Origin: Escherichia coli
Lineage (GTDB): Bacteria; Pseudomonadota; Gammaproteobacteria; Enterobacterales; Enterobacteriaceae
Reading direction: 5' to 3' (one strand)
DNA: 64,000 nucleotides
Assembly: GCF_030013595.1 (NCBI RefSeq)
Contig: NZ_CP122768.1
Below the pieces are notes generated by a model that saw nothing but the letters and a program-made list of their open reading frames with translations, was not told the origin of the DNA and ran no database searches. The position numbers and the translations under genes are program-made. Positions within the stretch are counted from its first letter, which is position 1. Each line of letters starts with the position of its first letter. Shown here one piece after another: positions 5,994 through 62,495 of this stretch.

Positions 5994-6199
5994 ATATGCA
6001 ATAATTAATTGCACTGCCCCGCCAGCTATAATCGCGGGGCTTCGTTTTTCAGGGATAACAAAACCCGAAACTTCTTCCATCTGCCAGCAACAATGCCTCT
6101 TCCTCTATAGTGTTCTCCGGATCTACAGCATCCTGAAGTAGCGCGATGTACTCATTGGCTATCTGCATCAGAAAGTTAAAAACAATGTTTTTAACCTAT

Positions 6200-6228
6200 A
6201 AAAATGGCGCTTTATTTGCGCCATTTTT
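6200..6228. terminator. Bidirectional rho-independent terminator between convergent ykgJ and yagU
   Basis: Perfect inverted repeat aaaaatggcgc / gcgccattttt with 6 nt loop, flanked by A/T runs on both strands. Confidence 0.55.
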
Positions 6229-6241
6229 ATCATTCAATGCA

Positions 6242-19623: not shown

Positions 19624-19997
19624 TGTTTCGCCCCCGGATGTTTACCCAGGGTAATGTTATTTACCGTTCTGTAGTTGTCGCGTGTCATCAGGCCGGTTGC
19701 CCGGCGTGCCCGGAGGATATCAATACTGTTTATTAACTGAGAACGGGTACAGGCGCTGAATCCCGGCTGGTCGGTACGTACCAGTGCGTATTTTTCAACG
19801 AGAAAGTTCACCGCATCGCACAGTGAAATGCCTGCCTCAATATGCTGCTCAATCACACGTTCATCAGCGAACGGTGTGTCATTCAGCGTAAGGCCGTAGT
19901 GCTGATCCAGCAGTCGGGTGAGCAGTGTCTGCCAGATTTCAACCGGAGACGGGCGTGAACTGGCCGCCTGCCCGGGTAATACAGGTAATGTTTTCAT
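19620..19997 (-). CDS. cbtA: CbtA/YeeV/YkfI-family type IV toxin (cytoskeleton-binding)
   Basis: Recalled near-identity to YeeV (MKTLPVLPG...SPVEIWQ...LLDQHYGLTLNDTPFADERVIEQHIEAGISLCDAVNFLVEKYALVR); ORF track start 20138 is an upstream extension. Confidence 0.9.
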   Translation of the reverse strand: MKTLPVLPGQAASSRPSPVEIWQTLLTRLLDQHYGLTLNDTPFADERVIEQHIEAGISLCDAVNFLVEKYALVRTDQPGFSACTRSQLINSIDILRARRATGLMTRDNYRTVNNITLGKHPGAKQ

Positions 19998-20086
19998 ACT
20001 GAAGATTTTCCTGAAATGCAGAGATGAAAAATGGAAAAGTGGCGTGGTGAAAGCACCAGGCCGGAGCAGAAGGTTATTCTGGAGAG

Positions 20087-20455
20087 TTACTTTTTCGTTT
20101 CGGGCGTCGGATAAACAGCCATATAAACGTAGCCACAACTGCCGAGGGTGTCGGCTTCGCAGGTCAGCCCTTTTGCATACAGCGTGACGGTATGCTGATG
20201 GCGGGGATTCAGTTCACCGCTGGTGAGCATGAGCTCCAGTTGTTTCATCAGCAGCGGAAAGGCCTGGTCTAGGTGGTACGAATCCGCGTCGCTGAACCGC
20301 CCTCTGATACCGGCGCGGTCGGCAAGGTAATGCAACCGGTTGCCTTCCTGTACCAGACGGGCACCAAAACAGGGCGTCACGGTGCAGGGCAGTCCCCACC
20401 AGGTGCGGTCGTTATTGTCGTCGGGAAGCGTTGTCCCGGGGAGTGTGTCTGACAC
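20087..20455 (-). CDS. cbeA: CbeA/YeeU-family type IV antitoxin
   Basis: 122 aa; recalled match to YeeU (MSDTLPGTT...WWGLPCTVTPCFGARLVQEGNRLHYLADRAGIRG); directly upstream of cbtA. Confidence 0.9.
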   Translation of the reverse strand: MSDTLPGTTLPDDNNDRTWWGLPCTVTPCFGARLVQEGNRLHYLADRAGIRGRFSDADSYHLDQAFPLLMKQLELMLTSGELNPRHQHTVTLYAKGLTCEADTLGSCGYVYMAVYPTPETKK

Positions 20456-20534
20456 GATAAAATCCTCACAGAAAATTGGTTAAGAATGGTCCGGTGGTGG
20501 CGATAATTCTGCTCTTCTGAATGCCCTTCCAGAC

Positions 20535-20756
20535 TCAGTTCAGGGTGACGCTCATCAGCCGGACATACGGACCAAAACTGTCCTTCCGGCGTTCTGCAAA
20601 CACAGCCAGCACACCGGGAATATCCTGTACTTCACGGCCGGTATATGTATCCGTGCTACCGTGCCAGCGGTATTTACCGGTACAGAACGGAAAAAGACGG
20701 GATGCAGGATGCTGACGGTGAATACGCATGGCTTCACCACGGGTGATGATTTTCAT
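20535..20756 (-). CDS. YeeT-like DUF987 protein
   Basis: 73 aa; recalled match to YeeT (MKIITRGEAMRIH...FPFCTGKYRWHGS). Confidence 0.8.
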   Translation of the reverse strand: MKIITRGEAMRIHRQHPASRLFPFCTGKYRWHGSTDTYTGREVQDIPGVLAVFAERRKDSFGPYVRLMSVTLN

Positions 20757-20842
20757 GAGAATAGTCCTCCTGAATGTGAAAGTAAGAAACAGCTGAGAAA
20801 GAGAAACTGAAGTGATATGAAGGTGATTGTGACGGTGACGGG

Positions 20843-21319
20843 TTAAAGCAGACCGTGTTCCGCAAAGGAGAAAACCTGGCTGCCACCGATTATCAGATGG
20901 TCCGGTACCCGGATATCCACCAGGGCCAGTGCCTGTACCAGACGCTCAGTGATAAGGCGGTCTGCCTTGCTGGGGGTGACTTCACCGGACGGGTGATTGT
21001 GCGCCAGCACCACGGCAGCGGCATTGTGGTACAGGGCGCGTTTAATCACCTCCCGGGGATGGACTTCTGTGCGGTTGATGGTGCCAGTGAAGAGGGTTTC
21101 ACCGGCAATCAGCTGATTCTGGTTGTTCAGATACAGCACCCGGAACTCTTCCCGCTCCAGTCCCGCCATGTTCAGTATCAGCCATTCCCGTGCCGCATGC
21201 GTGGAGGTGAAGGCCACGCCGGGTTCATGAAGATGGCGGTCCAGGGTTTTCAGGGCCCGTTGAATGAGGCTGCGCTCGCCGGGCGTCATCTCTCCGGGCA
21301 GAAAGGAAAGCTGTTGCAT
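20843..21319 (-). CDS. RadC-like JAB-domain protein (YeeS/YkfG family)
   Basis: JAMM-like motif HNHPSG; start set at MQQLSFLPGEM; ORF track start 21334. Confidence 0.85.
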   Translation of the reverse strand: MQQLSFLPGEMTPGERSLIQRALKTLDRHLHEPGVAFTSTHAAREWLILNMAGLEREEFRVLYLNNQNQLIAGETLFTGTINRTEVHPREVIKRALYHNAAAVVLAHNHPSGEVTPSKADRLITERLVQALALVDIRVPDHLIIGGSQVFSFAEHGLL

Positions 21320-21334
21320 TGTGCTTCTCTCCAT

Positions 21335-21820
21335 TCAGTCGATGATGCGCATAATGGCGCTGCATTCCGGATGCTGCAGGGCGTAATCCCGCAGCCGGTA
21401 ATAATGGACCGTCATGGCATAACACTCCGTACGACAGGCATGATGACTGTACGTCATCAGACAGGCAGCAATGCCGGCGGCTTCCGGGCTCATTTCAGCG
21501 CGGTTGCCGTTCATGACATTGAACAGTACCCATATTTCGTCATCATCGTCATCCGGTTCGGGTGCCATAAATGCCCCGCCGTTGTTCAGAGTGTACAGAT
21601 TCCAGATACCACCGCAGTAGTCTTCGCTCAGACGGTCCATCCAGCCGAAAACACGGGGCTCCAGGGTCACCCACTGTGGAATGAGACCAAAGTGCTGCGG
21701 CCAGAAGCTGATGCGCTGTTCATCAGGGACTATGGTGGCAACCAGCTGAGGCTGGTCATTCCCTGATGCAGCGGTTACGGAAACAGAAGGAGTGGTGGAA
21801 TTATGCGAGACGGTTGTCAT
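21335..21820 (-). CDS. Antirestriction protein (YfjX/YafX/KlcA-ArdB-like)
   Basis: 161 aa with acidic stretch PEPDDDDDE; conserved position upstream of radC in CP4-like islands. Confidence 0.7.
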   Translation of the reverse strand: MTTVSHNSTTPSVSVTAASGNDQPQLVATIVPDEQRISFWPQHFGLIPQWVTLEPRVFGWMDRLSEDYCGGIWNLYTLNNGGAFMAPEPDDDDDEIWVLFNVMNGNRAEMSPEAAGIAACLMTYSHHACRTECYAMTVHYYRLRDYALQHPECSAIMRIID

Positions 21821-21911
21821 GAGATTATTCCTTATAAAAAGTAAATGAATGGAAGAAACCCCGGGGGAAGGGACAAACGTGAGTCAGAACTGCGCTTTCA
21901 GGGAAAAGGCA

Positions 21912-22730
21912 TCAGCACATGCTCTCCAGCAGCGTTTCAGCCATTACCCACAATGCGCGATTGAGCTTAATGTCGGTGTCGATGCTGTGAATGGCACGGG
22001 TATGGATACGTTTCCCTCTGGCACTGCGACCGGAAATTCCGCCTTTCAGCATATTCTCCTGAATGGTCTGATAAGCACTCCACAGGTCCTTACCGTAATC
22101 CTCCCGGCGTCGTGGTGTCAGAATGTCGGCGGTGGTGACGGGCTGATGTTCGTCACCATAACGGTAAGTCAGTGCCGCCTGTGCCAGCGCCTGGCGTGCC
22201 GGTGGCGGCAGAATCAGCGACTGCATGGCATCACGCTTTTCCTCAATCCGCTCAAACACGCCCACCACCTCGTAAGCCCCTTCAATAACTTTCTCCACCA
22301 CATTTCCCCGGTGTGGAACACGCAATTCTCCCAGAGACTGACCGCAGACCAGTCCATTGGTACAAATGGCACGAAAATATCCGGGTAACATCTGGTAGCT
22401 GGATGAACCGTCATGGGAGTTGAGCAGAATAATTTCAGGGACATGCTGACCGGTTATCTGCCCGGCCCGCCGCAGACGCAGCATGTGTTTTGTGTATTCC
22501 CGGCGGCTCTGGTCGCGCACGCGGGTCTGGCAGGCAAAGAACGGCTGAAAGCCTTCCTGCTGCAGATTTTCCAGGACGGTGATAGTGGGAATGTACGCAT
22601 AGTGTTCACTTCGGGAGGTATGTCGGTTTTCCCCAAAAATACTCGGTACATGGCGCATCAGTTCTTCGTGTGTCAGCGGACGGTCACGGCGTATCTGGTT
22701 TACATGACCAAAACGACTCGCTAATCGCAT
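21912..22730 (-). CDS. DUF932 protein (YafZ/YfjQ-like)
   Basis: 272 aa; conserved position between antirestriction gene and GTPase/Ag43 block. Confidence 0.7.
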   Translation of the reverse strand: MRLASRFGHVNQIRRDRPLTHEELMRHVPSIFGENRHTSRSEHYAYIPTITVLENLQQEGFQPFFACQTRVRDQSRREYTKHMLRLRRAGQITGQHVPEIILLNSHDGSSSYQMLPGYFRAICTNGLVCGQSLGELRVPHRGNVVEKVIEGAYEVVGVFERIEEKRDAMQSLILPPPARQALAQAALTYRYGDEHQPVTTADILTPRRREDYGKDLWSAYQTIQENMLKGGISGRSARGKRIHTRAIHSIDTDIKLNRALWVMAETLLESMC

Positions 22731-22799
22731 TATTTGCTCCTTATGAATGAGTTAGCGGTATAAATGAATAAATATCCTCCGGCATAGCCGGAGGTTTTT

Positions 22800-23520
22800 C
22801 AAATGCGCCTGTAAGGCTCTGTTACCAGCCGCGCCCTAACAGGCGCATACGATCTGACATTTGCATTCAACTTCGTTACTTACGGCCCGTAAACGGGCTG
22901 CCCGGATATGGAATCGATAACTGCTCCCCCATTTTATCCTCTTCAAGCTGGTGCTTTATGTAGTCCTGTATCTTCGCCGTGTTCTTACCCACCGTATCGA
23001 CATAGTACCCTCGGCACCAGAACTCCCTGTTTCTGTATTTGAATTTCAAATCCCCAAACTGCTCGTAAAGCATCAGACTGCTTTTCCCTTTCAGATATCC
23101 CATAAAGCCGGATACGCTCATTTTGGGTGGGATTTCCACAAGCATATGGATATGATCTGCGCAGCACTCTGCTTCCAGAATCCGTACGCTTTTCCACTCA
23201 CACAGCTTTCTCAAAATACTGCCTATCGCCCTACGCTTCTCTCCGTAAAACGCCAGTCTTCGGTATTTCGGCGCAAAAACTATGTGATATTTACAGTTCC
23301 AGCGGGTGTGCGCTAAGCTCTTTTCGTCCCCCATTGGGACCCCCTTTTGATTTCTTGTTTGACACTTGCAGTTGCCAGACCGCAAGGTGTTTTAACAAAT
23401 CAAAAGGGGTTTTAATAACTGGCTCAAAGCTGAAAGCTTTCCGGAACCCCCAGCCTAGCTGGGGGTTTTCTGTGCACAAAAAGCCGCGTCTCCCGGAGAA
23501 GACGCGGCCTGATGGGTGAA
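22800..23520 (-). mobile_element. IS200-like insertion sequence (boundaries approximate)
   Basis: Contains IS200/IS605 Y1 transposase gene; upstream on the minus strand a perfect hairpin gccgcgtcttctccgggagacgcggc followed by a T-run and a second hairpin cccccagctaggctggggg, the characteristic IS200 left-end structures. Confidence 0.75.
22876..23334 (-). CDS. tnpA: IS200/IS605-family Y1 (HUH) transposase TnpA
   Basis: 152 aa from MGDEKSLAHTRWNCKYHIVFAPKYRR with HUH motif ADHIHMLVEIP and catalytic Tyr region; ORF track start 23385 is an extension. Confidence 0.85.
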   Translation of the reverse strand: MGDEKSLAHTRWNCKYHIVFAPKYRRLAFYGEKRRAIGSILRKLCEWKSVRILEAECCADHIHMLVEIPPKMSVSGFMGYLKGKSSLMLYEQFGDLKFKYRNREFWCRGYYVDTVGKNTAKIQDYIKHQLEEDKMGEQLSIPYPGSPFTGRK

Positions 23521-23530
23521 ATGAAGACGT

Positions 23531-23800
23531 TTATTGCCTGAGAATTCCCTCACTGGCGAGATACGGATTTAGCTGTTTTCCGGCATCAGGTTCAAAATTC
23601 CAGTACCGCCAGCGCAACTGACCTTCAGCATTACGGATAACCAGCCGGAAATGCGTTCCCTGGTCATCTTCAATAAGCACATTGCGGTAAGCTGTTGTGA
23701 CGGCAACCGCCTGTTCGCGTGAGAAAGGGCCTTCGGGTAATAAACGTGATGTACAACCCGGCATATCTGTTGCTCCCTGAAAGTAAAAGGCCCCGGTCAT
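23531..23800 (-). CDS. Small hypothetical protein downstream of antigen 43
   Basis: 89 aa ORF, no recognised domain; coding potential judged only by length and context. Confidence 0.4.
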
Positions 23801-23834
23801 GATGACCGGGGCCTGAAGGGGAGTGACCTGATTA

Positions 23835-26681
23835 TCAGAAAGTCACATTCAGCGTGGCCTGACCGTTATAACCTTCAGCGCTGCTGCCGCTGACGCTGTG
23901 GGCATAACCGGCCTGAACGCCCAGGGTGATATTTTCCCGGACACGGGCTTCCAGTCCGGCCTGCAGGTCCAGTGACGTGCCATTCTGGGATGGTGAGAAC
24001 GTCATGTTACTGCCGGCTGCGGCTGTACCCATGCTCATGTCACCCCGGGAGCTGAAGGTGCGGATAACAGAAGGCTGTACCCACCAGTTCACCGGCAGTT
24101 CACGCACACTGTGTTTTGCACTGTCGCGCAGGGTGTCACGGGATGAGGTGCCTTCACCAAAGGTCATATCGTTGTGGCTGCCCAGACGGAAACCGGCACG
24201 CACATGTTGTGCACTGCCATGCCCGAACTTCACATAACCGGCGTTATCCTGGCCGTCATCCAGGGAAAGTCCCTGCCAGGTATACTGCAGTTGTGGCTCC
24301 AGCATCAGGTTGTCAGTGATACTGAAGGGCAGACCGGTTTCCAGTGAGCCCAGCCAGCCCCAGCCCCGGGCGCGGAAGTCGTTATTGTCCGATGACGCTT
24401 TCATGCTGTGGCGGGTTCCCTGTGCCACAATGTCAGCCCACAGGCCGGAGGACGTGTGTGTCAGATTCAGGTATCCGCCCAGGCTGCCGGCATCATCCCG
24501 GACCGTGCCGGCACGGGAGCCGTCATCATCCTTAACATCAACGGAAGAATGGCCTGCAGCGCCATATACCCCCGTGGTCACAGACATACCGGCAACCTCT
24601 GTTCTCAGCAGGTCACCCTCCAGACGGACGAAGCCATAGCTGCCGCTGCTTTCCGGCGTGGCCCCACGGGCAATACCGCCGTTGTTATCGTGACCGAGAT
24701 GACCGCCCTGAATGCTGAGACGGACGCTGTTATTTTCACCGTTTACACCGGTCTGATGGCTGCGGGAGCCTGCCAGAATCCGGTCATAGTCCATTGCCTG
24801 TGTCAGCATGGAGGCATACAGGGGGACTTCAGCACGATAAGCATTTTCACTGCGCAGGTACCAGTCTTCATCGCTGTCACGGTTCAGGGTGTAGTTAAAG
24901 ACACCGGCCTGAAGCGGGCGACTCAGGGCAAACGCACCTTCTTCTGTGGTGGCACCATTCTGTGCATCCACAACCCGGATACCCTGTCCGGAGGTTGCCA
25001 CCCCGAGGTTACTGTTTCCGACATTTGTGAACGCAAGCCAGGTTTTGCCGGTTGCCTGACCACCATTAATCACCAGCTGGTCAGGGGCATTGCTGCCATC
25101 AAGGCGAACACGCATATTGATGGTGCCACCCTGACCGGTGAGGTTACTGGTGGTCAGTTTATGGAACGTTACCGGGGCGTCGCCTTTTGCAACAGCACGG
25201 CTCAGGACGGCATCCTGTGTCGTCTGATTATCAAAGCGAATCTCCCCTGCGTTAACAATATCGCCGGTACTGACCACATCACCATTCAGTACCATGCTGG
25301 CGCCTTTACTGAGCTGTGTTCTGCCACTCAGACTTCCCCCGGCAGCCAGCATCAGTGTCCCACGATGTCCGACAGTGGTGTTGCTGGCCTGTCCCCCGGC
25401 ATTAACCGTAAAGCTACCGCCATTTTCCAGCAGCAGGCCGCTGGCCTGACCGGATATACCATCAATACTGAACTTACCGCTGGCATTGGTCCCCTCAACA
25501 GTGGCACCACTGTCTGCAATCAGGGCACCACCGGATGTCATGGTGACACCTGTTGCCTTACCACCGGCAGACACTGCCAGGGTACCGCCGTCATCCACCC
25601 GTGTTTTCTGCGCTGAATGGCCCTCCAGTACATCCAGGCGACCGCCGGACTCCAGAACAAGGCCGTCAGCCTTACCGTTTTCCACCGTGAAATTGCCCAG
25701 ACGGTTGCTGCCGGTGACGGTTGCCGCCGTACTGGTGACCAGTGCGCCCCCCTGCTTCAGGGTGACATTCGTGGCTGTACCACCGGCGTTCACCTGCAGC
25801 TTGCCTTTCTGGTTAACGGTGGTGAAATCCGCCAGACCACCTTCCTTGATAATCTGCCAGCCGTCACTGTTTACAACAGTGCCAGACGCCGTACCGCCGT
25901 TGTGCACATACTGGTACCCCCCATTCAGCGTGGTATCCAGTGCGTGACCATGTACAGTCTGGTCGCCGCCGGCATAAACCACAGTGGTATTTACCGTTCC
26001 TTCAGCAGCCACAATCTGACGACCATTTTTATTGATGGTGGTGCGTACGGCATCTCCGTAGACGGTCTGCCCGGTATCACCATTTTCTGCATCCGGTCCC
26101 CCTTCCGCGCCGGTATTCACAACCGTGTCGGTTGCCACTGCGCCGGATTTGACGGCCTGCCAGCCCTTCTCATTAATGACAGTACCCGTTGCAATCCCGC
26201 CTTCATGTACCCACTGCTCACCGCCGTTCAGAGTGGTGTTCACTGCCTGCCCCTGAAGGCTCTGTCCGCCTCCGGCACTGATAACCGTGTCTGAAACGCT
26301 TCCTCCGGCATTCACTCTCTGAAGACCACCACCGGTGACAGTAGTGTTGTTGGCGATACCGCCATTTTGTATCCATTGTCCGCCGGTATTGGCCTCGTTA
26401 TCCGGCCCATACTCCAGACCGGTACTGATGGTCATTCCGTTGGCCGTACCGAAGACAATCTGGTTGTCATGATTTTCCAGTGTTCCGCCGCTCACGGTTT
26501 CTCCCGTCTGTACAACCGTGTCAGCAGCCAGTGCCGGGACTGATGTGACAGCAGCAAGAGACAGCGCAACCGCCACACCGGCGCGTTTTCCCCGTGAGCG
26601 GGCCAGTTCGGAGGTCACCACCAGGGTGCCCGTAATGTGATTCCATACCAGCCTGTAGCTGGTGTTCAGATGTCGTTTCAT
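23835..26681 (-). CDS. flu: Antigen 43 (Flu) self-associating autotransporter adhesin
   Basis: Extended autotransporter signal peptide [45 protein letters not shown]; repetitive beta-helix passenger; beta-barrel ending in aromatic F; 948 aa from this start (ORF track start 26756). Confidence 0.9.
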
Positions 26682-26894
26682 CAGCTTTTCCTTACAGAGG
26701 GTGAATAAAAAAGCCGGTACCCACAAATATGGGTACCGGCAGGTACAAAACAGCATGGTCAGATAAAGTGGTTTTTCCCGGACATAAATGCTTCTCCTCT
26801 CTCATCCGCCAGAGAAGTATCAGTCCGTTGTGTGCAATTCCGTTCTGCATGATGAAGAGATTCAGCTGCCTTTTCGCAGACCATTAACCACTAT

Positions 26895-26938
26895 AAACGA
26901 TCGATGGTAACGATCGATACATGTTTTATCGATCGTTT
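26895..26938 (-). promoter_or_regulatory. agn43 leader with three clustered GATC sites (Dam/OxyR phase-variation switch)
   Basis: GATC at 26899, 26912 and 26931 within about 35 bp, roughly 220-250 bp upstream of the Ag43 start codon. Confidence 0.65.
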
Positions 26939-27052
26939 TATTCTATTAACAGCAAGGCAGTCACGCAAGAGAAAGAGGTGGGTATGAGGTGTTTGTGTCA
27001 TGTTTTCAGTTGGTTAACGCAATGTAATCAGGCATTTCCCCTGGCAGAGTGT

Positions 27053-27922
27053 TCAGAAGAAAATCCAGTTCCATACAGCGCGGGCAACAGAGACCACCGT
27101 GTCACGGACGACACGCAGAACCGTACGAGCCACAGAGGCAATACAGACGCTCTCCGCCGTGTCAAATATCCGGTCCACCGCACCGGTAAACTGTTCACGG
27201 GCCTGCCCCCGGACAGATTCCGTGCACAACTCGTCCTGCAGGCGGGTCATCAGGGGACTGGCGGCATGGTCGGGAAGTGCTGTCATGAGCGCACTGACCA
27301 GCGTATCCAGTTCCCAGCCGGTGCGGGCCGATACGGCCACAACCGGATGTACGGGCCGGAACAGCCGGAATACCGCATCTGTTTTCTCACGAATGTTCTG
27401 TTCCTGTGCGGGAGAAGGCTGAATACCTGCCATATCCCATTCATGGCAGGGCTCCGTTTTGTCGGCCTGCGTCACCACAAACAGCACCTGCTGATGTCCC
27501 CGGTGCAGGATGTGTCGCCAGAAATACTCATCCACAGACAGGGCACGGTCATCGGCTTTAATCAGCCACAGTACCAGGTCAAGTTCAGGCAGAATGTCAC
27601 GGTACAGGGCTTCATACTCTGCATCCCTGTCCCGGCTCTCGCCCACCCCGGGTAGGTCAGTGATAACCATGCTGTGACCATGGCCACTCAGACGGAAGCG
27701 CTGCGCTTCCCGGGTGCCGGCGTGAACATCACTGACCGGGGTGACCTCCCCCTGAAACAGTGCATTACAGAGTGAGGATTTACCGGCCCCGCTTTTCCCC
27801 ATAATGCCAATCACGGGTTCGTGGCTGGTGAGTTTGCGCAGATGTTCCAGGATGTGACGGGAAAGTGAGTAAGGAAGAGAAGAAAGTGGTTTTTCAATTG
27901 CCTCAATGGCATCAGACGGATT
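27053..27922 (-). CDS. YfjP/YkfA/YeeP-family GTPase
   Basis: Walker A GIMGKSGAGKSS, G3 DLPG, G4 TQADK; start set at MNPSDAIEAIEK; ORF track start 27964. Confidence 0.85.
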   Translation of the reverse strand, partial: NPSDAIEAIEKPLSSLPYSLSRHILEHLRKLTSHEPVIGIMGKSGAGKSSLCNALFQGEVTPVSDVHAGTREAQRFRLSGHGHSMVITDLPGVGESRDRDAEYEALYRDILPELDLVLWLIKADDRALSVDEYFWRHILHRGHQQVLFVVTQADKTEPCHEWDMAGIQPSPAQEQNIREKTDAVFRLFRPVHPVVAVSARTGWELDTLVSALMTALPDHAASPLMTRLQDELCTESVRGQAREQFTGAVDRIFDTAESVCIASVARTVLRVVRDTVVSVARAVWNWIFF

Positions 27923-28255
27923 CATACATGTATTCCCGGTGAAAAAAGACAAAACCCCGCGCACCGGAAAGGTGGCGGGGGATTCACGGAGATAATATCT
28001 GTCTGAAATTATTTAGGATGCAGGTATCTTCAGATAATCGCACCCCCAGAATTTTATTCTTAATAGTTGAATAGTGGTATTTGGTTTCCCTGAGAGAATA
28101 TAAAGATGAATCATGCTGTATTGAGTTTGATTCTATTTGTACTGAGACAGGTATCTTCATGATTATAATCAAAAGCCGGGTGGATTGGTCTGGCGCTAAT
28201 TATTTTCTCGAATAAACTCACTAATTATTGTAACCATCCCAAAGGAGATGATTTT

Positions 28256-30400
28256 ATGTATAATTGTGGTGAATCATATTCAGAATACGACATATCATTA
28301 TCTGACGATGAAAACTATAACGATGACTATTATCGTGAGCGCCCGTGCCCGGGAGAAGTTTTCGGCTATGATAATGATGTACCACGGTTTAGTAAGATTG
28401 CACGGTCTTATTTGCTCCACGTGGGTAGCCTTGACTGGACCAAGATAAATCCGGATATCTTTGGCTCCATGATTCAGGCAATTGCCGAAGATGAAGAGCG
28501 CGGAGAGCTGGGTATGCATTACACCAGCGTACCCAACATCTTAAAAGTTTTGAATCCACTATTTCTTGACGACCTGCGTGCACAGCTGGACGAGGCTGGT
28601 GACAATCCACGTATGTTGCTGAACCTGCGCAAACGCATTTCCCACATTCGTGTGTTCGACCCAGCGTGCGGTTCTGGGAACTTTTTGGTTATCGCGTATA
28701 AGGAAATGCGTGCCATTGAGGCCGAAATCAACAAGAGGCGCAGTGAGCCGGATCGTGCCTCGGATATTCCACTTACCAACTTTCGCGGGATTGAACTACG
28801 AGATTTCCCGGCAGAAATCGCCCGCCTTGCGCTTGTTATCGCTGAGTACCAATGTGATGTGCTGTACCGTGGGCTGCGGCTGGCCTTGGCTGAGCTTCTT
28901 CCTTTACGCAACGAAAATTGGATTACTTGTGGCAATGCACTGCGGCTCGACTGGTTAAGAATTTGTCCGCCAACGGGAACCAGTGTGAAATTACATGGTG
29001 ACGACTTGTTTGGATCACCGCTTGATCAGGCAGAGATTGACTTTGAAAATGAAGGAGGAGAGACATATATTTGTGGAAATCCTCCATACAAGGGTAGCCA
29101 AACCCAAACTGATGACCAAAAAAATGATCTAAAAGCCATATTCGAGAAACGCACAACTAATTGGAAGTCATTGGATTATGTTGCAGGTTGGTTTATGAAG
29201 GCTGTCGACTACGGTAGTCAAACTAACTCGTCTGCTGCGTTCGTCTCAACTAATTCCATTTGTCAAGGTAGACAGGTCGAAACCCTTTGGTCGTTGATTT
29301 TTGCAGCCAAGCATGAAATATCCTTTGCTTATACGTCCTTCAAATGGGCAAATCTTGCTAGCCACAATGCGGGAGTGAGTGTCATTGTTGTGGGAATTTC
29401 TAATCATGTTAAGGGCCCCCGGAAAATATTTTCCACAACTGAGGATTTGGGGACCATCATAAAAGAAGTAGACAACATCAATGCGTATCTTGTCGCGGGT
29501 AAAAGCACAATTGTTGCACAGCGAAGTTTTCCTTTATCCGAAGTAAGTGTAATGGATTTTGGTTCAATGGCGAACGATGGTGGTGGCCTTCTTTTTGACA
29601 GTTCAGAATCAAGTCGTGCAGTTAATGATTATGGTGCTGATATTTGTTATTTTCGAAAGGCTTGGGGAGCTAAGGAGTTTATTTCTGGAACTCCTAGAGC
29701 TTGCCTGTGGTTAAATAAAGACAGTGCTAAAAAAGCAATTCTGAACTCTTGGATTTCAGACCGAATTGAGATCACACGTAAGGCCAGAGCAAATAGTCCT
29801 CGGGCAGCGACAAAAAAACTAGCAGATATTGCTTACAGATTTGGTGAAGTGAGGCAAGACGGCAGCGAGCGAATCATTATTGTTCCCAGTGTCAGTTCTG
29901 AACGTAGGGAGTATCTTCCATGTGGTTATCTCGATGTTGGTTCAATCGTTATCGCTCCGAATCTTGCTTTCTATGATTCCCCGCTTTGGAATATGGCGCT
30001 TATTGCTTCTAGGTTGCATTTGGTATGGGTGGCGACAGTCTGCGGGCGTATCAAAACTGACTATCGCTACTCTAATACCCTTGGCTGGAATACTTTCCCT
30101 GTCCCACCACTCACTGAGAAAAACAAGGCCGACCTTACGCGTTGCGCAGAGGATATCCTACTGGCGCGGGAACACCACTTCCCTGCGACTATTGCGGATT
30201 TGTATGATCCCGCGAACATGCCCCCTGACCTGCGTGCTGCCCATGAACGAAACGACGAAGTGCTGGAACGCATCTATATAGGGCGACGATTCAAGAACGA
30301 CACTGAGCGGCTGGAAAAGTTGTTCGACCTCTACACGAAAATGATTGCTTCGACTGCACCGGTCAAAGGTAAGAAGCGCAAAGCAGGAAATAACGAATGA
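28256..30400 (+). CDS. N6-adenine DNA methyltransferase, gamma-class, MmeI/PglX-like, without nuclease domain
   Basis: 714 aa; strong SD aaaggaga 8 nt before ATG; SAM motif I VFDPACGSGNFLV at about aa 135 and catalytic motif IV CGNPPYKG at about aa 277; upstream HYTS helical region; about 430 aa C-terminal presumed target-recognition region. Confidence 0.8.
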   Translation: MYNCGESYSEYDISLSDDENYNDDYYRERPCPGEVFGYDNDVPRFSKIARSYLLHVGSLDWTKINPDIFGSMIQAIAEDEERGELGMHYTSVPNILKVLNPLFLDDLRAQLDEAGDNPRMLLNLRKRISHIRVFDPACGSGNFLVIAYKEMRAIEAEINKRRSEPDRASDIPLTNFRGIELRDFPAEIARLALVIAEYQCDVLYRGLRLALAELLPLRNENWITCGNALRLDWLRICPPTGTSVKLHGDDLFGSPLDQAEIDFENEGGETYICGNPPYKGSQTQTDDQKNDLKAIFEKRTTNWKSLDYVAGWFMKAVDYGSQTNSSAAFVSTNSICQGRQVETLWSLIFAAKHEISFAYTSFKWANLASHNAGVSVIVVGISNHVKGPRKIFSTTEDLGTIIKEVDNINAYLVAGKSTIVAQRSFPLSEVSVMDFGSMANDGGGLLFDSSESSRAVNDYGADICYFRKAWGAKEFISGTPRACLWLNKDSAKKAILNSWISDRIEITRKARANSPRAATKKLADIAYRFGEVRQDGSERIIIVPSVSSERREYLPCGYLDVGSIVIAPNLAFYDSPLWNMALIASRLHLVWVATVCGRIKTDYRYSNTLGWNTFPVPPLTEKNKADLTRCAEDILLAREHHFPATIADLYDPANMPPDLRAAHERNDEVLERIYIGRRFKNDTERLEKLFDLYTKMIASTAPVKGKKRKAGNNE

Positions 30401-32442
30401 ACAATAAAATCAAGAATGTACCTTCCGTTTCCGTTACTTATGCACGTAATGGCGCATCAACCAAAGCTAATGTGCTTGGGATGCGTCCTATGCAGGAGAG
30501 AGCTTATGAAAAGCGCGGCGAGCAGTACTTGCTTATCAAATCACCACCGGCATCAGGTAAAAGCCGCGCACTGATGTTCATAGCACTCGACAAACTCGAA
30601 AACCAAGGGATTAAACAGGCAATCATCGTTGTGCCGGAAAAATCTATCGGCGCGAGTTTCAACGATGAACCGCTATCGCAGTTTGGATTCTGGGCTGATT
30701 GGCATGTCGAACCTAAGTGGAACCTATGCAACGCGCCCGGTAACGACAACGGGGGCAAGGTAAGATCTTTTGGCTCTTTTCTTGAAAGTAGCGACAAGGT
30801 GCTTGTTTGCACACACGCAACCTTTCGCTTCGCGGTCGATGCCTATGGCGTAGAAGCGTTTGACGATCGCCTGATCGCCGTCGATGAATTCCACCATGTG
30901 TCAGCTAACCCGGATAACAAGCTTGGTCAGCATCTGGGGCAGTTCATCGCGCGTGATAAGACACACATCGTTGCCATGACCGGCTCCTACTTCCGTGGTG
31001 ATGCGGAGGCCGTTTTGGCTCCTCAGGATGAGTCCAGGTTCGATACCGTCACCTATACCTACTACGAACAACTCAACGGTTACGAATACCTCAAGCAACT
31101 CGATATCGGCTACTTCTTTTACAGTGGCTCCTACGTCGATGACATCCTTAATGTCCTCGATCCTGACAAAAAGACCATTATCCATATACCCAACGTCAAT
31201 TCGCGCGAGAGCACGAAGGATAAAATCAAGGAAGTGGAGCATATTCTTAGCGAGCTTGGCGATTGGCAAGGTGCGGATCCTGCGACTGGTTTCCAGCTAG
31301 TCAAATGCCTCGATGGCCGAATGTTGCGTATAGCTGATCTGGTGGACCCAACTAGTCAAGGCAAGATTCAGGAAAGCCTTCGTGCTGCAGAAATGAAGAC
31401 AGACCGTGACTATGTAGACATCATTATTGCACTTGGTATGGCGAAGGAAGGTTTTGACTGGATTTGGTGCGAACATGCGCTGACCGTTGGCTACCGTGCC
31501 AGCCTGACTGAGATCGTGCAGATTATCGGTCGCGCTACTCGCGACGCGCCGGGTAAAAACCGCGCAAGGTTTACTAACCTGATCGCCGAGCCGGATGCTG
31601 TTGAGGGGGCTGTCACCGAGGCAGTCAACGATACCTTGAAAGCCATCGCGGCAAGCCTGCTGATGGAGCAAGTATTAGCTCCGCGCTTCGAGTTCAAGCC
31701 TAAGAACCCAGAAAGTGGTCCGGCCCCAGGCTTTGATTATGGTGATGGTGGATATGACCCGGATAGCTGTAATTTTGGTGTTAATGAGCAGACAGGGACG
31801 TATCAAATCGAGATTAAGGGACTTGCCGAGCCCAGGAGCAAAGAGGCGGCACGCATCTGCCAGGAAGATTTAAACGAAGTGATCGCGGCCTTTGTGCAGG
31901 ATAAGCCCGCCATCGAACGAGGCCTGTTCGATGAAGAGCTGATTCCTGAAGAGTTAACTCAGGTTCGTATGGGTAAGATCATCAAAGAAAAGTATCCTGA
32001 GCTTGATGCTGAAGATCAGGAGGCTGTACGTCAGCATGCTATCGCCGCCCTTAACCTCACGCAGCAGGCCAAGCGTCTTGCCACCGACGATAACGATGGG
32101 ACGCTCAATACTGCTCTTATTGACGGAGTGCGTCGCTTTGCGATGGATGTGCGCGATTTAGACATAGACCTTATCGACCGCATCAATCCCTTTGGTGAAG
32201 CCTACGCTATCCTTGCTAAGACGATGAGTGAAGACAGTTTGAAGCAGGTCGCGGCGGCAATCTCGGCCAAGCGTACCTCGATCACACCTGAAGATGCCAA
32301 GGTGATCGCCAAGCGTGCCGCTGAATTCAAACGTGAACGTGGCCGCCTCCCATCGTTAACTTCGCCGGATGCTTGGGAAAAACACCTTGCTGAAGGTGCA
32401 GCTGCGTTTATGCGTTTTAGGGCGGAGGGACGTTATGAATAA
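30397..32442 (+). CDS. SF2 (DEAD/DEAH, ResIII-like) helicase with about 300 aa uncharacterised C-terminal extension
   Basis: 681 aa; ATGA overlap with MTase stop; Walker A SPPASGKSRA, DExH box IAVDEFHHV, motif III MTGSYF, motif VI QIIGRATRD. Confidence 0.8.
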   Translation: MNNKIKNVPSVSVTYARNGASTKANVLGMRPMQERAYEKRGEQYLLIKSPPASGKSRALMFIALDKLENQGIKQAIIVVPEKSIGASFNDEPLSQFGFWADWHVEPKWNLCNAPGNDNGGKVRSFGSFLESSDKVLVCTHATFRFAVDAYGVEAFDDRLIAVDEFHHVSANPDNKLGQHLGQFIARDKTHIVAMTGSYFRGDAEAVLAPQDESRFDTVTYTYYEQLNGYEYLKQLDIGYFFYSGSYVDDILNVLDPDKKTIIHIPNVNSRESTKDKIKEVEHILSELGDWQGADPATGFQLVKCLDGRMLRIADLVDPTSQGKIQESLRAAEMKTDRDYVDIIIALGMAKEGFDWIWCEHALTVGYRASLTEIVQIIGRATRDAPGKNRARFTNLIAEPDAVEGAVTEAVNDTLKAIAASLLMEQVLAPRFEFKPKNPESGPAPGFDYGDGGYDPDSCNFGVNEQTGTYQIEIKGLAEPRSKEAARICQEDLNEVIAAFVQDKPAIERGLFDEELIPEELTQVRMGKIIKEKYPELDAEDQEAVRQHAIAALNLTQQAKRLATDDNDGTLNTALIDGVRRFAMDVRDLDIDLIDRINPFGEAYAILAKTMSEDSLKQVAAAISAKRTSITPEDAKVIAKRAAEFKRERGRLPSLTSPDAWEKHLAEGAAAFMRFRAEGRYE

Positions 32443-44975: not shown

Positions 44976-45031
44976 TTGATTTAAATGGTGCCGATAATAG
45001 GAGTCGAACCTACGACCTTCGCATTACGAAT
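44976..45031 (-). repeat. Island-junction direct repeat overlapping the 3' part of thrW
   Basis: 56 bp match to 16635-16690 with 2 mismatches. Confidence 0.85.
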
Positions 45032-45061
45032 GCGCTGCTCTACCAACTGAGCTATATCGGC
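44986..45061 (-). tRNA. thrW: tRNA-Thr (anticodon CGT)
   Basis: Reverse complement reads GCCGATATAGCTCAGTTGGTAGAGCAGCGCATTCGTAATGCGAAGGTCGTAGGTTCGACTCCTATTATCGGCACCA; 76 nt with CCA end, located next to proA. Confidence 0.95.
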
Positions 45062-59099: not shown

Positions 59100-60161
59100 T
59101 TACACTTTGATCAAAACGGATTCGTTCTGTTGAAATTGAGGCGCATCATCAAGCTGTAAGGCGGCACTCACCTCTTCCTGCTGATGGCCCGACTGTTGTT
59201 GTTGCTGCGACTGCCCTTCGGAGGAAACCTGTACGTTCACCTCCATAAAATTTTGCGCCGTCAGATGCTGGCGGAGATCGTCGCTAAACTGTTGTAACGC
59301 GCGGCAAACTTCACTTTGGTTCGCGCCGATATGCACCATCAGTTTGCCGTTATCGAGTTGTACGGCGATCTCAAGCTTGCCAAGCGACGGTGGATCGAGA
59401 CGGATGGTGGAGATCTGCTGTTGTTTGTTGAGCTGAAAGTGGATCTGATCTTTCAAAAGCGTCGTCAGTTTTTCGCCCAGTTCGTCCATCGAAAGCGTGG
59501 CTGGTTTGGCGACAATCTCCTGATGTTCGCTGACCAGATCCGGCGTCTTAACCTGCAACACCGCACGCGCAATAACCGGTTCGCTGTCCGGCACTTTTTC
59601 CGTTTTACGCTCGACCTGCGGGCGCGCGTTCACACGGGTTAGTTCAGGTTTCGGGCGAGCTGGCTGTGTTGAGACGCGCGGCTGCGTCGGCGCAATGGCA
59701 TGTAAATATTCACTGGCGTAAGTCGCCAGTCTGGCCTGCTGTTCGGGTTTCGCCTGCGGCAACTGACTGATCAGTTCCTGCAACTGCGGCGGCAACGGCG
59801 TGAGTTCCTGCTGCTGCGTCGGGCGTTGCGGCGCGTTTTGCACCACCGCTTTCGTCAATTGCTGGATAACCGGCGATGTTGCGACGTTTCGCGGCTGCGG
59901 CGTGTCCTGATGCGGCGCGGCAGGTTGCGGAAGTAACAGCGCCATTAGCGCCTGCATCGCCACCAGATCGTTCTCCTGCGGGCGCGTCGCCTGTTGCTGA
60001 CTGGTTTTAGCGCTATGAACGCGCTCCGCCACCGCCGCGACCGCCATTTTCGGCAGGGTAAACGCGGGCGCGTTTTCACCGCTCACCGGCGGTAAAATAT
60101 CCGCCTTCAACGAAGCGGTTTCCGCAAGCGTTCCGAGCGTGGCAAGCAATGCCGGATTCAT
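59100..60161 (-). CDS. lafE: FliK-like hook-length control protein LafE
   Basis: 353 aa, Pro/Gln-rich central region, Gln-rich C-terminal domain. Confidence 0.6.
   Translation of the reverse strand: MNPALLATLGTLAETASLKADILPPVSGENAPAFTLPKMAVAAVAERVHSAKTSQQQATRPQENDLVAMQALMALLLPQPAAPHQDTPQPRNVATSPVIQQLTKAVVQNAPQRPTQQQELTPLPPQLQELISQLPQAKPEQQARLATYASEYLHAIAPTQPRVSTQPARPKPELTRVNARPQVERKTEKVPDSEPVIARAVLQVKTPDLVSEHQEIVAKPATLSMDELGEKLTTLLKDQIHFQLNKQQQISTIRLDPPSLGKLEIAVQLDNGKLMVHIGANQSEVCRALQQFSDDLRQHLTAQNFMEVNVQVSSEGQSQQQQQSGHQQEEVSAALQLDDAPQFQQNESVLIKV

Positions 60162-62379: not shown

Positions 62380-62495
<116 letters not shown>

What the first reader, a model, noticed from the sequence alone, without database searches (positions are those of the whole stretch)
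26682..27052. Antigen 43 copy is a short variant with an intact three-GATC switch region
Three GATC sites within 35 bp (26899-26934) in the long leader fit the Dam/OxyR phase-variation mechanism known for agn43. The protein here is 948 aa from the MKRHLNT start, versus 1039 aa as I recall for K-12 Flu, implying a shortened passenger domain.
Basis: partly seen in the sequence, partly recalled or inferred. Interest (0 to 1): 0.4.

Follow-up and report, generated by a model that had tools for sequence, protein, structure and literature searches.

The report
Common short Antigen 43 allele with switch
This is an intact copy of the well-known E. coli self-aggregation adhesin Antigen 43, in its common, already crystallised 948-residue form, preceded by the standard Dam/OxyR on-off switch, so it is ordinary.

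Summary
GATC sites lie at 26899, 26912 and 26931. The minus-strand gene 23835..26681 encodes 948 aa from MKRHLNT. K-12 Flu is 1039 aa with the same start.

The 91-aa difference is two blocks missing from the lower part of the passenger beta-helix. This is not an unusual truncation:
- NCBI's Ag43/Cah model is itself 948 positions long and is matched end to end.
- The passenger is 96% identical to the crystallised Ag43 of UPEC UTI89 (PDB 7KO9).
- Published surveys describe this short subfamily (SF-II).
- 3248 of 5426 complete E. coli genomes hold at least 80% of this locus.

The regulatory region is homologous to the K-12 switch: -35 TTGCGT, 17 nt, -10 TAGAAT, then the three GATCs. Their 19/13-bp spacing is invariant in all 10 alleles compared. 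They fall at +3 to +38 of the Rfam IS102 (IsrC) leader RNA (26936..26700), which ends in a conserved hairpin plus T-run before the ribosome-binding site.

Phase variation itself is inferred by homology, not shown here.

Side observation: the coding sequence has no GATC in any of the 10 alleles (6-9 expected), so the switch sits in a multi-kilobase GATC desert.

Verdict: already known; low interest.

The parts
23835..26681 (-). agn43 (Ag43/Cah family autotransporter adhesin) CDS, 948 aa plus stop; intact, single copy in the window
   Evidence: Translation. NCBIfam NF033177 auto_Ag43 scores 1986.6 bits (cutoff 1200), matched 1-948 of 948. Pfam finds ESPR, AIDA repeats, AC_1 and Autotransporter. 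tblastn of the protein against the window gives one hit only.
26526..26681 (-). Extended signal peptide (aa 1-52, ESPR type), ending ...VPALA/AD
   Evidence: Pfam PF13018 ESPR covers aa 6-52. The PDB constructs of UTI89 and EDL933 Ag43 start at residue 53.
24843..26525 (-). Passenger (alpha) domain including the autochaperone, aa 53-613. It is an L-shaped beta-helix of the short (SF-II, EJ2-BL2) type and lacks two blocks (41 and about 51 aa) present in K-12 Flu, including the K-12 D551/P552 processing site.
   Evidence: 20 mismatches over the 562 aligned residues (52-613), 96.4% identity, to PDB 7KO9, Ag43 of UTI89. Regional identities and gap blocks. Four rather than seven rungs in the C-terminal helix of the short forms (PMC8993888). 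AC_1 covers aa 488-599.
23910..24662 (-). Beta-barrel translocator domain (Pfam Autotransporter, aa 674-924)
   Evidence: PF03797, E = 1e-18. Residues 614-948 are 96% identical to K-12 and 98% to O157 Cah.
26899..26934 (-). Three Dam sites in transcription order: GATC-I 26934-26931, GATC-II 26915-26912, GATC-III 26902-26899. Each sits in a CGATCG context. This is the presumed OxyR operator of the phase switch.
   Evidence: The sites and their 19/13-bp spacing are invariant in 10 alleles, while the spacers between them vary. Mechanism in K-12 as summarised in PMC2909390 and PMC3764049.
26940..26968 (-). Promoter by homology to K-12: -35 TTGCGT (26968-26963), 17-nt spacer, -10 TAGAAT (26945-26940)
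   Evidence: Alignment with K-12 (TTGTCC / 17 nt / TAGAAT) and other alleles; the -10 and the 'TCTCTTG' stretch are invariant. The generic promoter scan did not call it, because the -35 has only 3 of 6 consensus matches. The assignment is therefore by homology, not by score.
26700..26936 (-). Leader RNA homologous to IS102/IsrC (the agn43 leader). Counting from the first IS102 position (26936) to the ATG gives 255 nt, against 224 nt in K-12.
   Evidence: Rfam RF00124 IS102: 72.6 bits, gathering score 46, E = 4e-10, full model 1-206. [quoted passage not shown]
26707..26740 (-). Intrinsic-terminator-like hairpin inside the leader: 12-bp stem with 8 G-C pairs and a 4-nt loop at 26740-26713, then TTTTTT at 26712-26707. 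It lies 26 nt upstream of the ATG and is the presumed attenuator.
   Evidence: Terminator scan. Present in the MFE and centroid folds. All 12 pairs are kept in 9 alleles, with only two one-sided G-U/G-C changes.
26689..26693 (-). Shine-Dalgarno AAGGA, 7 nt upstream of the ATG
   Evidence: Read from the sequence. Invariant in all alleles.
27053..27925 (-). Upstream neighbour: GTPase-family (YeeP-like) gene of the CP4-like island module. Its stop codon bounds the regulatory region.
   Evidence: Pfam MMR_HSR1 and Dynamin_N. Annotated 'GTPase family protein' next to agn43 in all related loci.

Best explanation
The locus is an intact agn43 gene on a genomic island beside tRNA-Thr(CGU)/proA. It encodes a self-associating type Va autotransporter adhesin of the short SF-II subfamily.

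Protein anatomy:
- The passenger has a K-12-like stem (SL1 type) joined to the Cah/UTI89-type elbow, bottom and autochaperone module.
- Its closest characterised relative is Ag43 of UTI89 (PDB 7KO9).

Inferred expression mechanism, as in K-12:
- A sigma-70 promoter (-35 TTGCGT, -10 TAGAAT) fires just upstream of three GATC sites that overlap a single OxyR operator.
- If OxyR binds the unmethylated sites after replication, it blocks transcription and keeps Dam away. This is the heritable OFF state.
- If Dam methylates the sites first, OxyR cannot bind and the gene is ON.
- Transcripts then traverse a 255-nt IsrC-type leader. Its conserved hairpin plus U-run can stop most of them before the ribosome-binding site.

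Shown here: the sequence anatomy, homology, conservation and family membership. Inferred by homology: OxyR binding, methylation states, the exact transcription start, termination or antitermination in the leader, and aggregation strength.
For: Family membership and integrity:
- NF033177 is matched 1-948 of 948 at 1986.6 bits.
- Pfam finds ESPR, AIDA repeats, AC_1 and Autotransporter.
- The start is the same as in K-12 and alignment runs to the last residue.

Short form is a known type:
- 96.4% identity to 7KO9 over residues 52-613. 7KOH (EDL933 Cah) also aligns over residues 52-613 (E = 6.4e-281).
- Vo 2022 describes the short forms as having four instead of seven C-terminal rungs and places UTI89 in class C4.
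- Ageorges 2019 and 2023 give about 430-aa versus about 500-aa passengers and describe shuffling of the EJ2-BL2-AC module.
- Mosaic identities in this protein: SL region 87% to K-12 but 72% to Cah; residues 346-613 are 92-94% to Cah but 57-58% to K-12.

Prevalence: 4240 of 5426 genomes have a match, and 3248 hold at least 80% of the 3.2-kb query.

Switch and leader:
- The -10 and the three GATCs are invariant with identical spacing in 10 long and short alleles.
- Rfam IS102 hit at 26936-26700.
- Terminator-like hairpin, conserved.
- The K-12 mechanism is summarised in PMC2909390 and PMC3764049.
Against: - No experiment on this allele. OxyR consensus scoring does not discriminate: 12-13 of 20 specified positions here, 14 of 20 for the proven K-12 site.
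- The -35 hexamer matches only 3 of 6 consensus positions, and the generic promoter scan finds nothing.
- One base inside the presumed operator is unique to this window among the seven long-leader alleles: T at 26921 on the minus strand, where the others have G. K-12 has T at the aligned position.
- The primary papers that map the K-12 transcription start and the leader terminator (Wallecha 2002, Wallecha 2014, Kaminska 2010) were not available. The start assignment rests on the Rfam model boundary and on distance from the -10.
- The EC958 5' end at -228 would fall between GATC-II and GATC-III if EC958 carries the 255-nt leader type. I could not check which type it has.
- The alpha/beta processing site of the short forms is unknown (PMC8993888), and the K-12 D551/P552 site is absent here.
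Confidence: 0.9

Rival explanations
1. The 948-aa length is an artefact or a defect: a wrong start codon, an internal deletion or pseudogene peculiar to this strain, or an assembly collapse of the repetitive passenger.
For: The passenger is made of repeats that could collapse or recombine (five AIDA stretches). A longer in-frame ORF of 973 aa exists from an ATG at 26756.
Against: The start is the same as in K-12 and in all annotated homologues. The NCBIfam model is itself 948 positions long and is matched end to end. The same length (948/949 aa) is seen in isolateA, O26, NMBU and O157 and in the crystallised UTI89 and EDL933 proteins. The upstream ATG at 26756 lies inside the IS102 leader, upstream of the terminator hairpin, and the alignment of 10 upstream regions stays conserved only from the SD/ATG at 26681.
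Confidence: 0.02
2. The GATC cluster is present, but the switch is degenerate in this allele. It would be locked ON or OFF because of the weak -35, the unique base at 26921, or the variant GATC-II/III spacer (TTACCA), so the gene is not phase variable.
For: T at 26921 is unique among the seven long-leader alleles compared, and the II-III spacer differs between alleles. The -35 matches 3 of 6 consensus positions. OxyR consensus match is 12-13 of 20 against 14 of 20 in K-12.
Against: The -35 TTGCGT is shared by every long-leader allele, so it is not a private lesion. K-12 has T at the position aligned with 26921. The spacers vary freely among alleles while the GATC cores are invariant, which suggests the spacers are tolerant. 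The consensus score is as poor for the experimentally proven K-12 site.
Confidence: 0.07
3. The three GATCs are a chance cluster, or serve something other than agn43 control, for example a SeqA site or the terminator of the upstream GTPase gene.
For: About one triple GATC within 36 bp is expected per 64 kb at the window's density, and a second such triple exists at 59412-59450. The palindromic CGATCG units also form hairpins that the terminator scan picks up on both strands.
Against: The sites show base-for-base homology to the K-12 agn43 operator, with identical spacing in 10 alleles. They sit directly after the conserved -10 and inside the Rfam IS102 match. The GTPase gene ends 118 bp upstream, at 27053.
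Confidence: 0.01

Closest known systems
Ag43 of UPEC UTI89 (UTI89_C1139; crystal structure PDB 7KO9; class C4 in Vo et al. 2022, PMC8993888)
   Same: The passenger alignment (residues 52-613) is gapless and 96.4% identical, with 20 substitutions. Both have the short bottom-of-L helix (four rungs) with the autochaperone included.
   Different: The 20 substitutions are scattered through the passenger. Whether they touch the single self-association interface defined for UTI89 was not analysed. The UTI89 regulatory region was not compared. Whether this allele falls in C4 or C6 of the later six-class scheme is unresolved.
Cah (calcium-binding antigen 43 homologue) of EHEC O157:H7, 949 aa (PDB 7KOH; class C2)
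   Same: Same architecture and length class. Residues 346-613 are 92-94% identical and the translocator 98%. Same long-type leader (254-255 nt) and the same three GATCs.
   Different: The stem (SL) subdomain, residues 53-345, is only 72% identical: SL2 type in Cah, SL1 type here. The published aggregation behaviour differs between C2 and C4 proteins.
Flu/Ag43 of E. coli K-12 (1039 aa; class C1, SF-I) with its Dam/OxyR switch
   Same: Same start, ESPR signal peptide (83% identity), SL1-type stem (87%) and translocator (96%). Same promoter layout, same three GATCs with 19/13-bp spacing, same terminator hairpin, SD and flanking GTPase gene.
   Different: K-12 has the EJ1-BL1-AC module: 57-58% identity and 91 aa longer, in blocks of 41 and about 51 aa, containing the D551/P552 processing site. 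The K-12 leader is 31 nt shorter (224 against 255 nt) and diverged in its middle. GATC-I is CGATCA in K-12 and CGATCG here.
IS102 / IsrC RNA (Rfam RF00124), the agn43 leader transcript
   Same: Full-length match above the gathering score. The 5' end carrying the GATC palindromes and the 3' terminator hairpin plus U-run are near-identical.
   Different: The central part carries longer insertions than the model (41 against 35 nt and 63 against 35 nt in the two unaligned stretches), which lowers the score to 72.6 bits.
Other Dam/OxyR epigenetic switches (Salmonella gtr and opvAB; phage Mu mom)
   Same: GATC sites inside OxyR half-sites; methylation and OxyR binding are mutually exclusive (PMC2909390, PMC4856963).
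   Different: Those systems use two alternative OxyR sites with GATC pairs located upstream of the promoter. agn43, as here, has a single repressor site with three GATCs immediately downstream of the -10.

Membership tests
Ag43/Cah family autotransporter adhesin (NCBIfam NF033177, equivalog) | Whole-protein score above the curated cutoff, with end-to-end coverage of the model | tested here: met
   1986.6 bits against a cutoff of 1200; residues 1-948 match profile positions 1-948 of 948.
Ag43/Cah family autotransporter adhesin (NCBIfam NF033177, equivalog) | Type Va modular architecture: ESPR signal peptide, beta-helical passenger with AIDA-type repeats, type 1 autochaperone, C-terminal beta-barrel | tested here: met
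   Pfam PF13018 (aa 6-52), PF16168 (5 stretches), PF18883 (aa 488-599) and PF03797 (aa 674-924).
Ag43/Cah family autotransporter adhesin (NCBIfam NF033177, equivalog) | Self-association causing cell aggregation; heat-releasable alpha domain | not testable with these tools
   Shown for the 96%-identical UTI89 protein, with reduced aggregation relative to Ag43a (PMC8993888). Not shown for this allele.
Ag43 subfamily SF-II (short passenger, EJ2-BL2-AC module; classes C2/C4/C5/C6 of Ageorges 2019/2023) | Passenger of about 430 aa rather than about 500 aa, with the difference in the BL subdomain | tested here: met
   The 91 aa missing relative to K-12 fall in two blocks in the lower helix and start of the autochaperone region. 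Residues 346-613 are 92-96% identical to the Cah alleles and 57-58% to K-12 and other long alleles. Published definitions.
Ag43 subfamily SF-II (short passenger, EJ2-BL2-AC module; classes C2/C4/C5/C6 of Ageorges 2019/2023) | Class assignment by SL subtype (SL1b = C4, SL1a = C6, SL2a = C2) | tested here: inconclusive
   The SL region is 87% identical to K-12 (SL1a) and 72% to Cah (SL2a), so it is SL1 type and not C2. The nearest characterised protein, UTI89, is called C4. No SL1b or C6 reference sequence was available to separate C4 from C6.
agn43-type Dam/OxyR phase-variation switch | Three GATC sites clustered immediately downstream of the promoter -10 and transcription start | tested here: met
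   GATCs at 26934-26899. The -10 TAGAAT at 26945-26940 is homologous to K-12. Spacing is identical in 10 alleles. The sites occupy +3 to +38 of the IS102 match.
agn43-type Dam/OxyR phase-variation switch | An OxyR binding site overlapping the GATCs | tested here: inconclusive
   The best match to the Toledano consensus is 12-13 of 20 specified positions here and 14 of 20 in the proven K-12 site. The motif score does not discriminate. Binding needs EMSA or footprinting.
agn43-type Dam/OxyR phase-variation switch | Differential methylation of the sites in ON and OFF cells; locked OFF in dam mutants and locked ON in oxyR mutants | not testable with these tools
   Known for K-12. OxyR repression is known for the UPEC/ABU agn43 alleles. 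No data for this allele.
IS102/IsrC leader RNA (Rfam RF00124) | Covariance-model score at or above the gathering threshold, on the strand and at the position upstream of agn43 | tested here: met
   72.6 bits against 46; model positions 1-206 of 206; minus strand, 26936-26700, ending 18 nt before the ATG.
IS102/IsrC leader RNA (Rfam RF00124) | 3' intrinsic terminator that attenuates read-through into agn43 | tested here: met
   The sequence feature is present and conserved: a 12-bp stem plus T6. Its termination activity was not testable here.

The most novel reading that the evidence does not exclude
The three switch GATCs may be deliberately isolated. All 10 agn43 alleles examined, long and short, have no GATC at all in about 2.9-3.1 kb of coding sequence, where synonymous-codon shuffles expect 6-9. 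In one relative the GATC-free stretch runs 6.3 kb downstream of the switch.

The least conventional reading is that selection keeps the neighbourhood GATC-free for one of two reasons:
- so that the epigenetic state of the switch is not disturbed by processive Dam or by SeqA tracts arriving from nearby sites; or
- so that MutH-directed mismatch repair is weak across agn43, which would favour the homeologous recombination that produced the mosaic allele classes.

A more mundane alternative is the general depletion of GATC in mobile elements, which has already been reported.
Probability: 0.15. Interest if true: 0.45.

Novelty: already known. Interest (0 to 1): 0.08.

Why it matters
It matters little beyond correct annotation. 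The window carries one intact, probably phase-variable Ag43 of the UTI89/C4-like short type on a thrW-side island. This is useful for strain typing and for predicting aggregation and biofilm behaviour. The published work suggests this type gives weaker aggregation and can form mixed aggregates with other classes.

The short form, its structure, its population frequency, the Dam/OxyR switch and the IsrC leader are all published. The only thread that might repay work is the complete absence of GATC from agn43 coding sequences around an epigenetic GATC switch. If selected, it would say something about how Dam-based switches are insulated, or about local suppression of mismatch repair.

Tried and rejected
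- **Primary papers:** I tried to read the papers that map the K-12 transcription start, the essential elements and the leader terminator (Wallecha 2002 PMC135096, Kaminska 2010 PMC2838033, Wallecha 2014 PMC4135670). None is held. The start site and attenuation therefore rest on the Rfam model boundary, secondary citations and my own recollection.
- **Promoter scan:** the generic sigma-70 scan found no promoter in 26500-27200 because the -35 matches only 3 of 6 positions. I kept the promoter assignment on homology alone.
- **OxyR motif:** consensus scoring gave 12-14 of 20 for every allele, including K-12, and several equally good registers. I rejected it as a test.
- **RNA covariation:** a consensus fold of 9 leaders gave a positive (unfavourable) covariation term of +1.69. 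No compensatory changes occur in either the 5' GATC hairpin or the terminator; both are simply conserved. The alignment gives no independent evidence that the 5' hairpin is an RNA feature rather than a by-product of the DNA palindromes.
- **Longer ORF:** I considered the 973-aa ORF from 26756 and rejected it.
- **Second copy:** I looked for a second Ag43 copy in the window and found none.
- **Class assignment:** I could not separate class C4 from C6, because no SL1b (H10407) or C6 reference sequence was obtainable with the tools.
- **EC958 leader:** I could not check which leader type EC958 carries, which is needed to reconcile its 5' RACE end at -228.

Full report
**1. The observation**

- The plus strand shows GATC at 26899, 26912 and 26931, a 36-bp span.
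- The sites lie in the 371-bp gap between a minus-strand GTPase-family gene (stop at 27053) and a large minus-strand ORF.
- Read on the minus strand, the region is ...TCTCTTGCGTGACTGCCTTGCTGTTAATAGAATAAAACGATCGATAAAACATGTATCGATCGTTACCATCGATCGTTTATAG....
- The ORF from the ATG at 26681 to the stop at 23835 gives 948 aa beginning [15 protein letters not shown].
- K-12 agn43 in RefSeq is 1039 aa beginning MKRHLNTCYRLVWNH. Every factual element of the finding is therefore correct.

By count alone the GATC cluster is not beyond chance. At 203 GATCs per 64 kb, my Poisson estimate is about one triple within 36 bp, and two triples within 40 bp are present. Its significance comes from homology and context, set out below.

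**2. What the protein is**

- NCBIfam NF033177 (Ag43/Cah family, equivalog) scores 1986.6 bits against a cutoff of 1200.
- The model is 948 positions long and is matched 1-948. The 'short' length is the family model's own length.
- Pfam gives the full type Va architecture: ESPR signal peptide (aa 6-52), five AIDA repeat stretches, type 1 autochaperone (aa 488-599) and beta-barrel (aa 674-924).
- There is only one copy in the window.

**3. Where the 91 residues go**

BLASTP against K-12 Flu aligns both proteins from residue 1 to the last residue, with 72% identity and 91 gap positions, all between about residues 350 and 600 of K-12. A multiple alignment resolves these into two blocks missing from the short form, one of 41 aa and one of about 51 aa. 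They lie in the lower part of the beta-helix and the beginning of the autochaperone region. The second block contains the K-12 D551/P552 processing site.

Regional identities show a mosaic:

| Region (window residues) | vs K-12 | vs O157 Cah |
|---|---|---|
| Stem, 53-345 | 87% | 72% |
| 346-613 | 57-58% | 92-94% |
| Translocator, 614-948 | 96% | 98% |

**4. This form is already described and solved**

- Against PDB sequences the best match is 7KO9: residues 52-613 against chain 3-564, gapless, 20 mismatches, 96.4% identity.
- Next is 7KOH, then 4KH3 and 7KOB.
- Vo et al. 2022 (PMC8993888) identify 7KO9 as Ag43 of UPEC UTI89 and 7KOH as Ag43/Cah of EDL933.
- They state that both are shorter than Ag43a by 69 aa in the alpha domain, giving four instead of seven rungs in the C-terminal helix. 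They place UTI89 in class C4 and report that its processing site is unknown.
- Ageorges et al. 2019 and 2023 describe two subfamilies: passengers of about 500 aa (C1, C3) and about 430 aa (C2, C4, and later C5 and C6). The difference arises from an EJ2-BL2-AC module that has been shuffled with different stem subtypes.
- The short classes together make up about 56% of Ag43 sequences.
- In the complete-genome collection, 4240 of 5426 E. coli genomes match this 3.2-kb locus and 3248 hold at least 80% of it. They are annotated 'Ag43/Cah family autotransporter adhesin' or 'cah'.
- I could not decide between C4 and C6 of the six-class scheme, for lack of reference sequences.

**5. The regulatory region**

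I aligned the upstream regions of ten alleles. Five are short (948/949 aa), four are long (1039/1040 aa), and one is a frameshifted long allele. The alignment shows:

- an invariant -10 TAGAAT (window 26945-26940);
- a conserved TCTCTTG stretch that provides the -35 (TTGCGT here, TTGTCC in K-12; 17-nt spacer in both);
- three invariant GATC cores with identical 19- and 13-bp spacing, while the bases between them vary.

Rfam's IS102 model, the IsrC RNA that is the agn43 leader, matches 26936-26700 on the minus strand over its full length, at 72.6 bits against a gathering score of 46.

The RNA ends in a 12-bp, G+C-rich hairpin (26740-26713) followed by TTTTTT. This lies 26 nt before the ATG and just before the AAGGA ribosome-binding site. 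All twelve pairs are kept in nine alleles, with only two one-sided wobble changes.

There are two leader types, measured from the first IS102 position: 254-255 nt (here, Cah and several long alleles) and 222-224 nt (K-12 and one other). Leader type is independent of passenger length.

**6. Mechanism**

The K-12 mechanism is summarised in PMC2909390 and PMC3764049:

- There is a single OxyR repressor site overlapping the three GATCs.
- Methylation by Dam abolishes OxyR binding, giving the ON state.
- Bound OxyR blocks Dam, giving the OFF state.
- dam mutants are locked OFF. oxyR mutants and dam overexpression are locked ON.

[quoted passage not shown] In EC958 a 5' end was mapped 228 bp upstream of the start codon (PMC4807369).

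For this allele the mechanism is inferred from homology. The weak points are:

- The OxyR consensus score is uninformative: 12-13 of 20 here, 14 of 20 in K-12.
- The -35 is weak, and the generic scan calls no promoter.
- One base in the operator, T at 26921, is private to this window among long-leader alleles, although K-12 has T at the aligned position.

**7. Context**

- The gene sits on an island next to tRNA-Thr(CGU) at 44986-45061 and proA.
- It lies within the usual CP4-like module: GTPase, agn43, DUF905, DUF932, antirestriction, RadC, YeeT, CbeA, CbtA, DUF4942, integrase.
- There is no yeeR-irmA downstream, unlike the UPEC operon of PMC4807369.

**8. Side observation: a GATC desert**

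- The 3745-bp stretch 23158-26898 is the longest GATC-free gap in the window. About 0.0014 such gaps are expected at the mean rate.
- All ten agn43 coding sequences have zero GATC, whereas synonymous-codon shuffles expect 6.2-8.7. Zero occurred in 0.05% or fewer of 2000 shuffles.
- As a control, most other long ORFs in the window have observed counts close to expected. The adjacent GTPase gene (0 against 3.2) and one core gene (6 against 12.1) are also depleted.
- In strain 2022H047 the desert runs 6.3 kb. In the window it is interrupted only by two GATCs at 22851 and 23154. The second lies inside the IS200-family transposase ORF (22876-23385) and the first just beyond it.
- GATC-free regions of 1 kb or more in genomic islands and prophages have been reported generally (Forde 2015, PMC4659465). 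I found no statement about agn43 specifically.

**9. Verdict**

Novelty: already known. Interest: 0.08.

Noticed in passing
window 23158-26898 (also 19905-22850 and 26935-28750); L004 9278-15559: The switch sits in a GATC desert. No GATC occurs in the agn43 CDS of any of 10 alleles, where 6-9 are expected from synonymous shuffles. The 3745-bp gap is the largest in the window, and the equivalent gap in strain 2022H047 is 6.3 kb. TCGA and CTAG are also absent from the CDS. General GATC-free regions in islands are published (PMC4659465), but this case beside an epigenetic GATC switch is not discussed there.
   Followed up: partly
window 22876-23385 (-) and 23344-23467 (-): An IS200-family (Y1 transposase) ORF lies between DUF905 and DUF932, downstream of agn43, together with a full-length Rfam STnc490 Hfq-binding RNA match (146 bits). 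2022H047 (L004) has no annotated gene between DUF905 and DUF932. The IS ORF contains one of the two GATCs (23154) that interrupt the desert; the other (22851) lies just beyond it.
   Followed up: partly
window ~28256-30400 (+), junction near 28372-28375: Relative to strain 2022H047, the window lacks 2.29 kb (L004 17038-19328). The missing stretch holds IS66 remnants and the first ~758 nt of an MmeI-family methyltransferase gene. The deletion leaves a 714-aa ORF that begins in a small hypothetical gene and continues in frame into the MTase, TRD and C-terminal domains, so the N-terminal part of the 928-aa enzyme is lost. A DEAD/DEAH helicase gene follows (30397-32442).
   Followed up: partly
window 23788-23814 (-): A strong 12-bp G+C-rich hairpin (AGGCCCCGGTCATCATGACCGGGGCCT) lies 20 nt after the agn43 stop and overlaps the start of the DUF905 ORF. 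It has only a weak T-tract. It is unclear whether it terminates the agn43 transcript or whether the downstream module is co-transcribed under the phase switch.
   Followed up: no
window 26682-26936 versus L001 1343-1566: There are two agn43 leader (IsrC) types, 254-255 nt and 222-224 nt. They differ by two insertions and a diverged middle, and they assort independently of long or short passenger type. This indicates recombination breakpoints between the leader and the passenger.
   Followed up: partly
window 59393-59450: A second dense GATC cluster (59393, 59412, 59442, 59447) lies inside a 353-aa minus-strand ORF (59100-60161). That ORF has more GATCs than synonymous shuffles expect (10 against 6.2). 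The gene was not identified.
   Followed up: no
window 6036-6236 (-) and 62409-62451 (-): Full-length Rfam matches to IS009 (191 bits) and ES036/CssrF (43 bits) in the core-genome flanks. These are unrelated to the finding.
   Followed up: no
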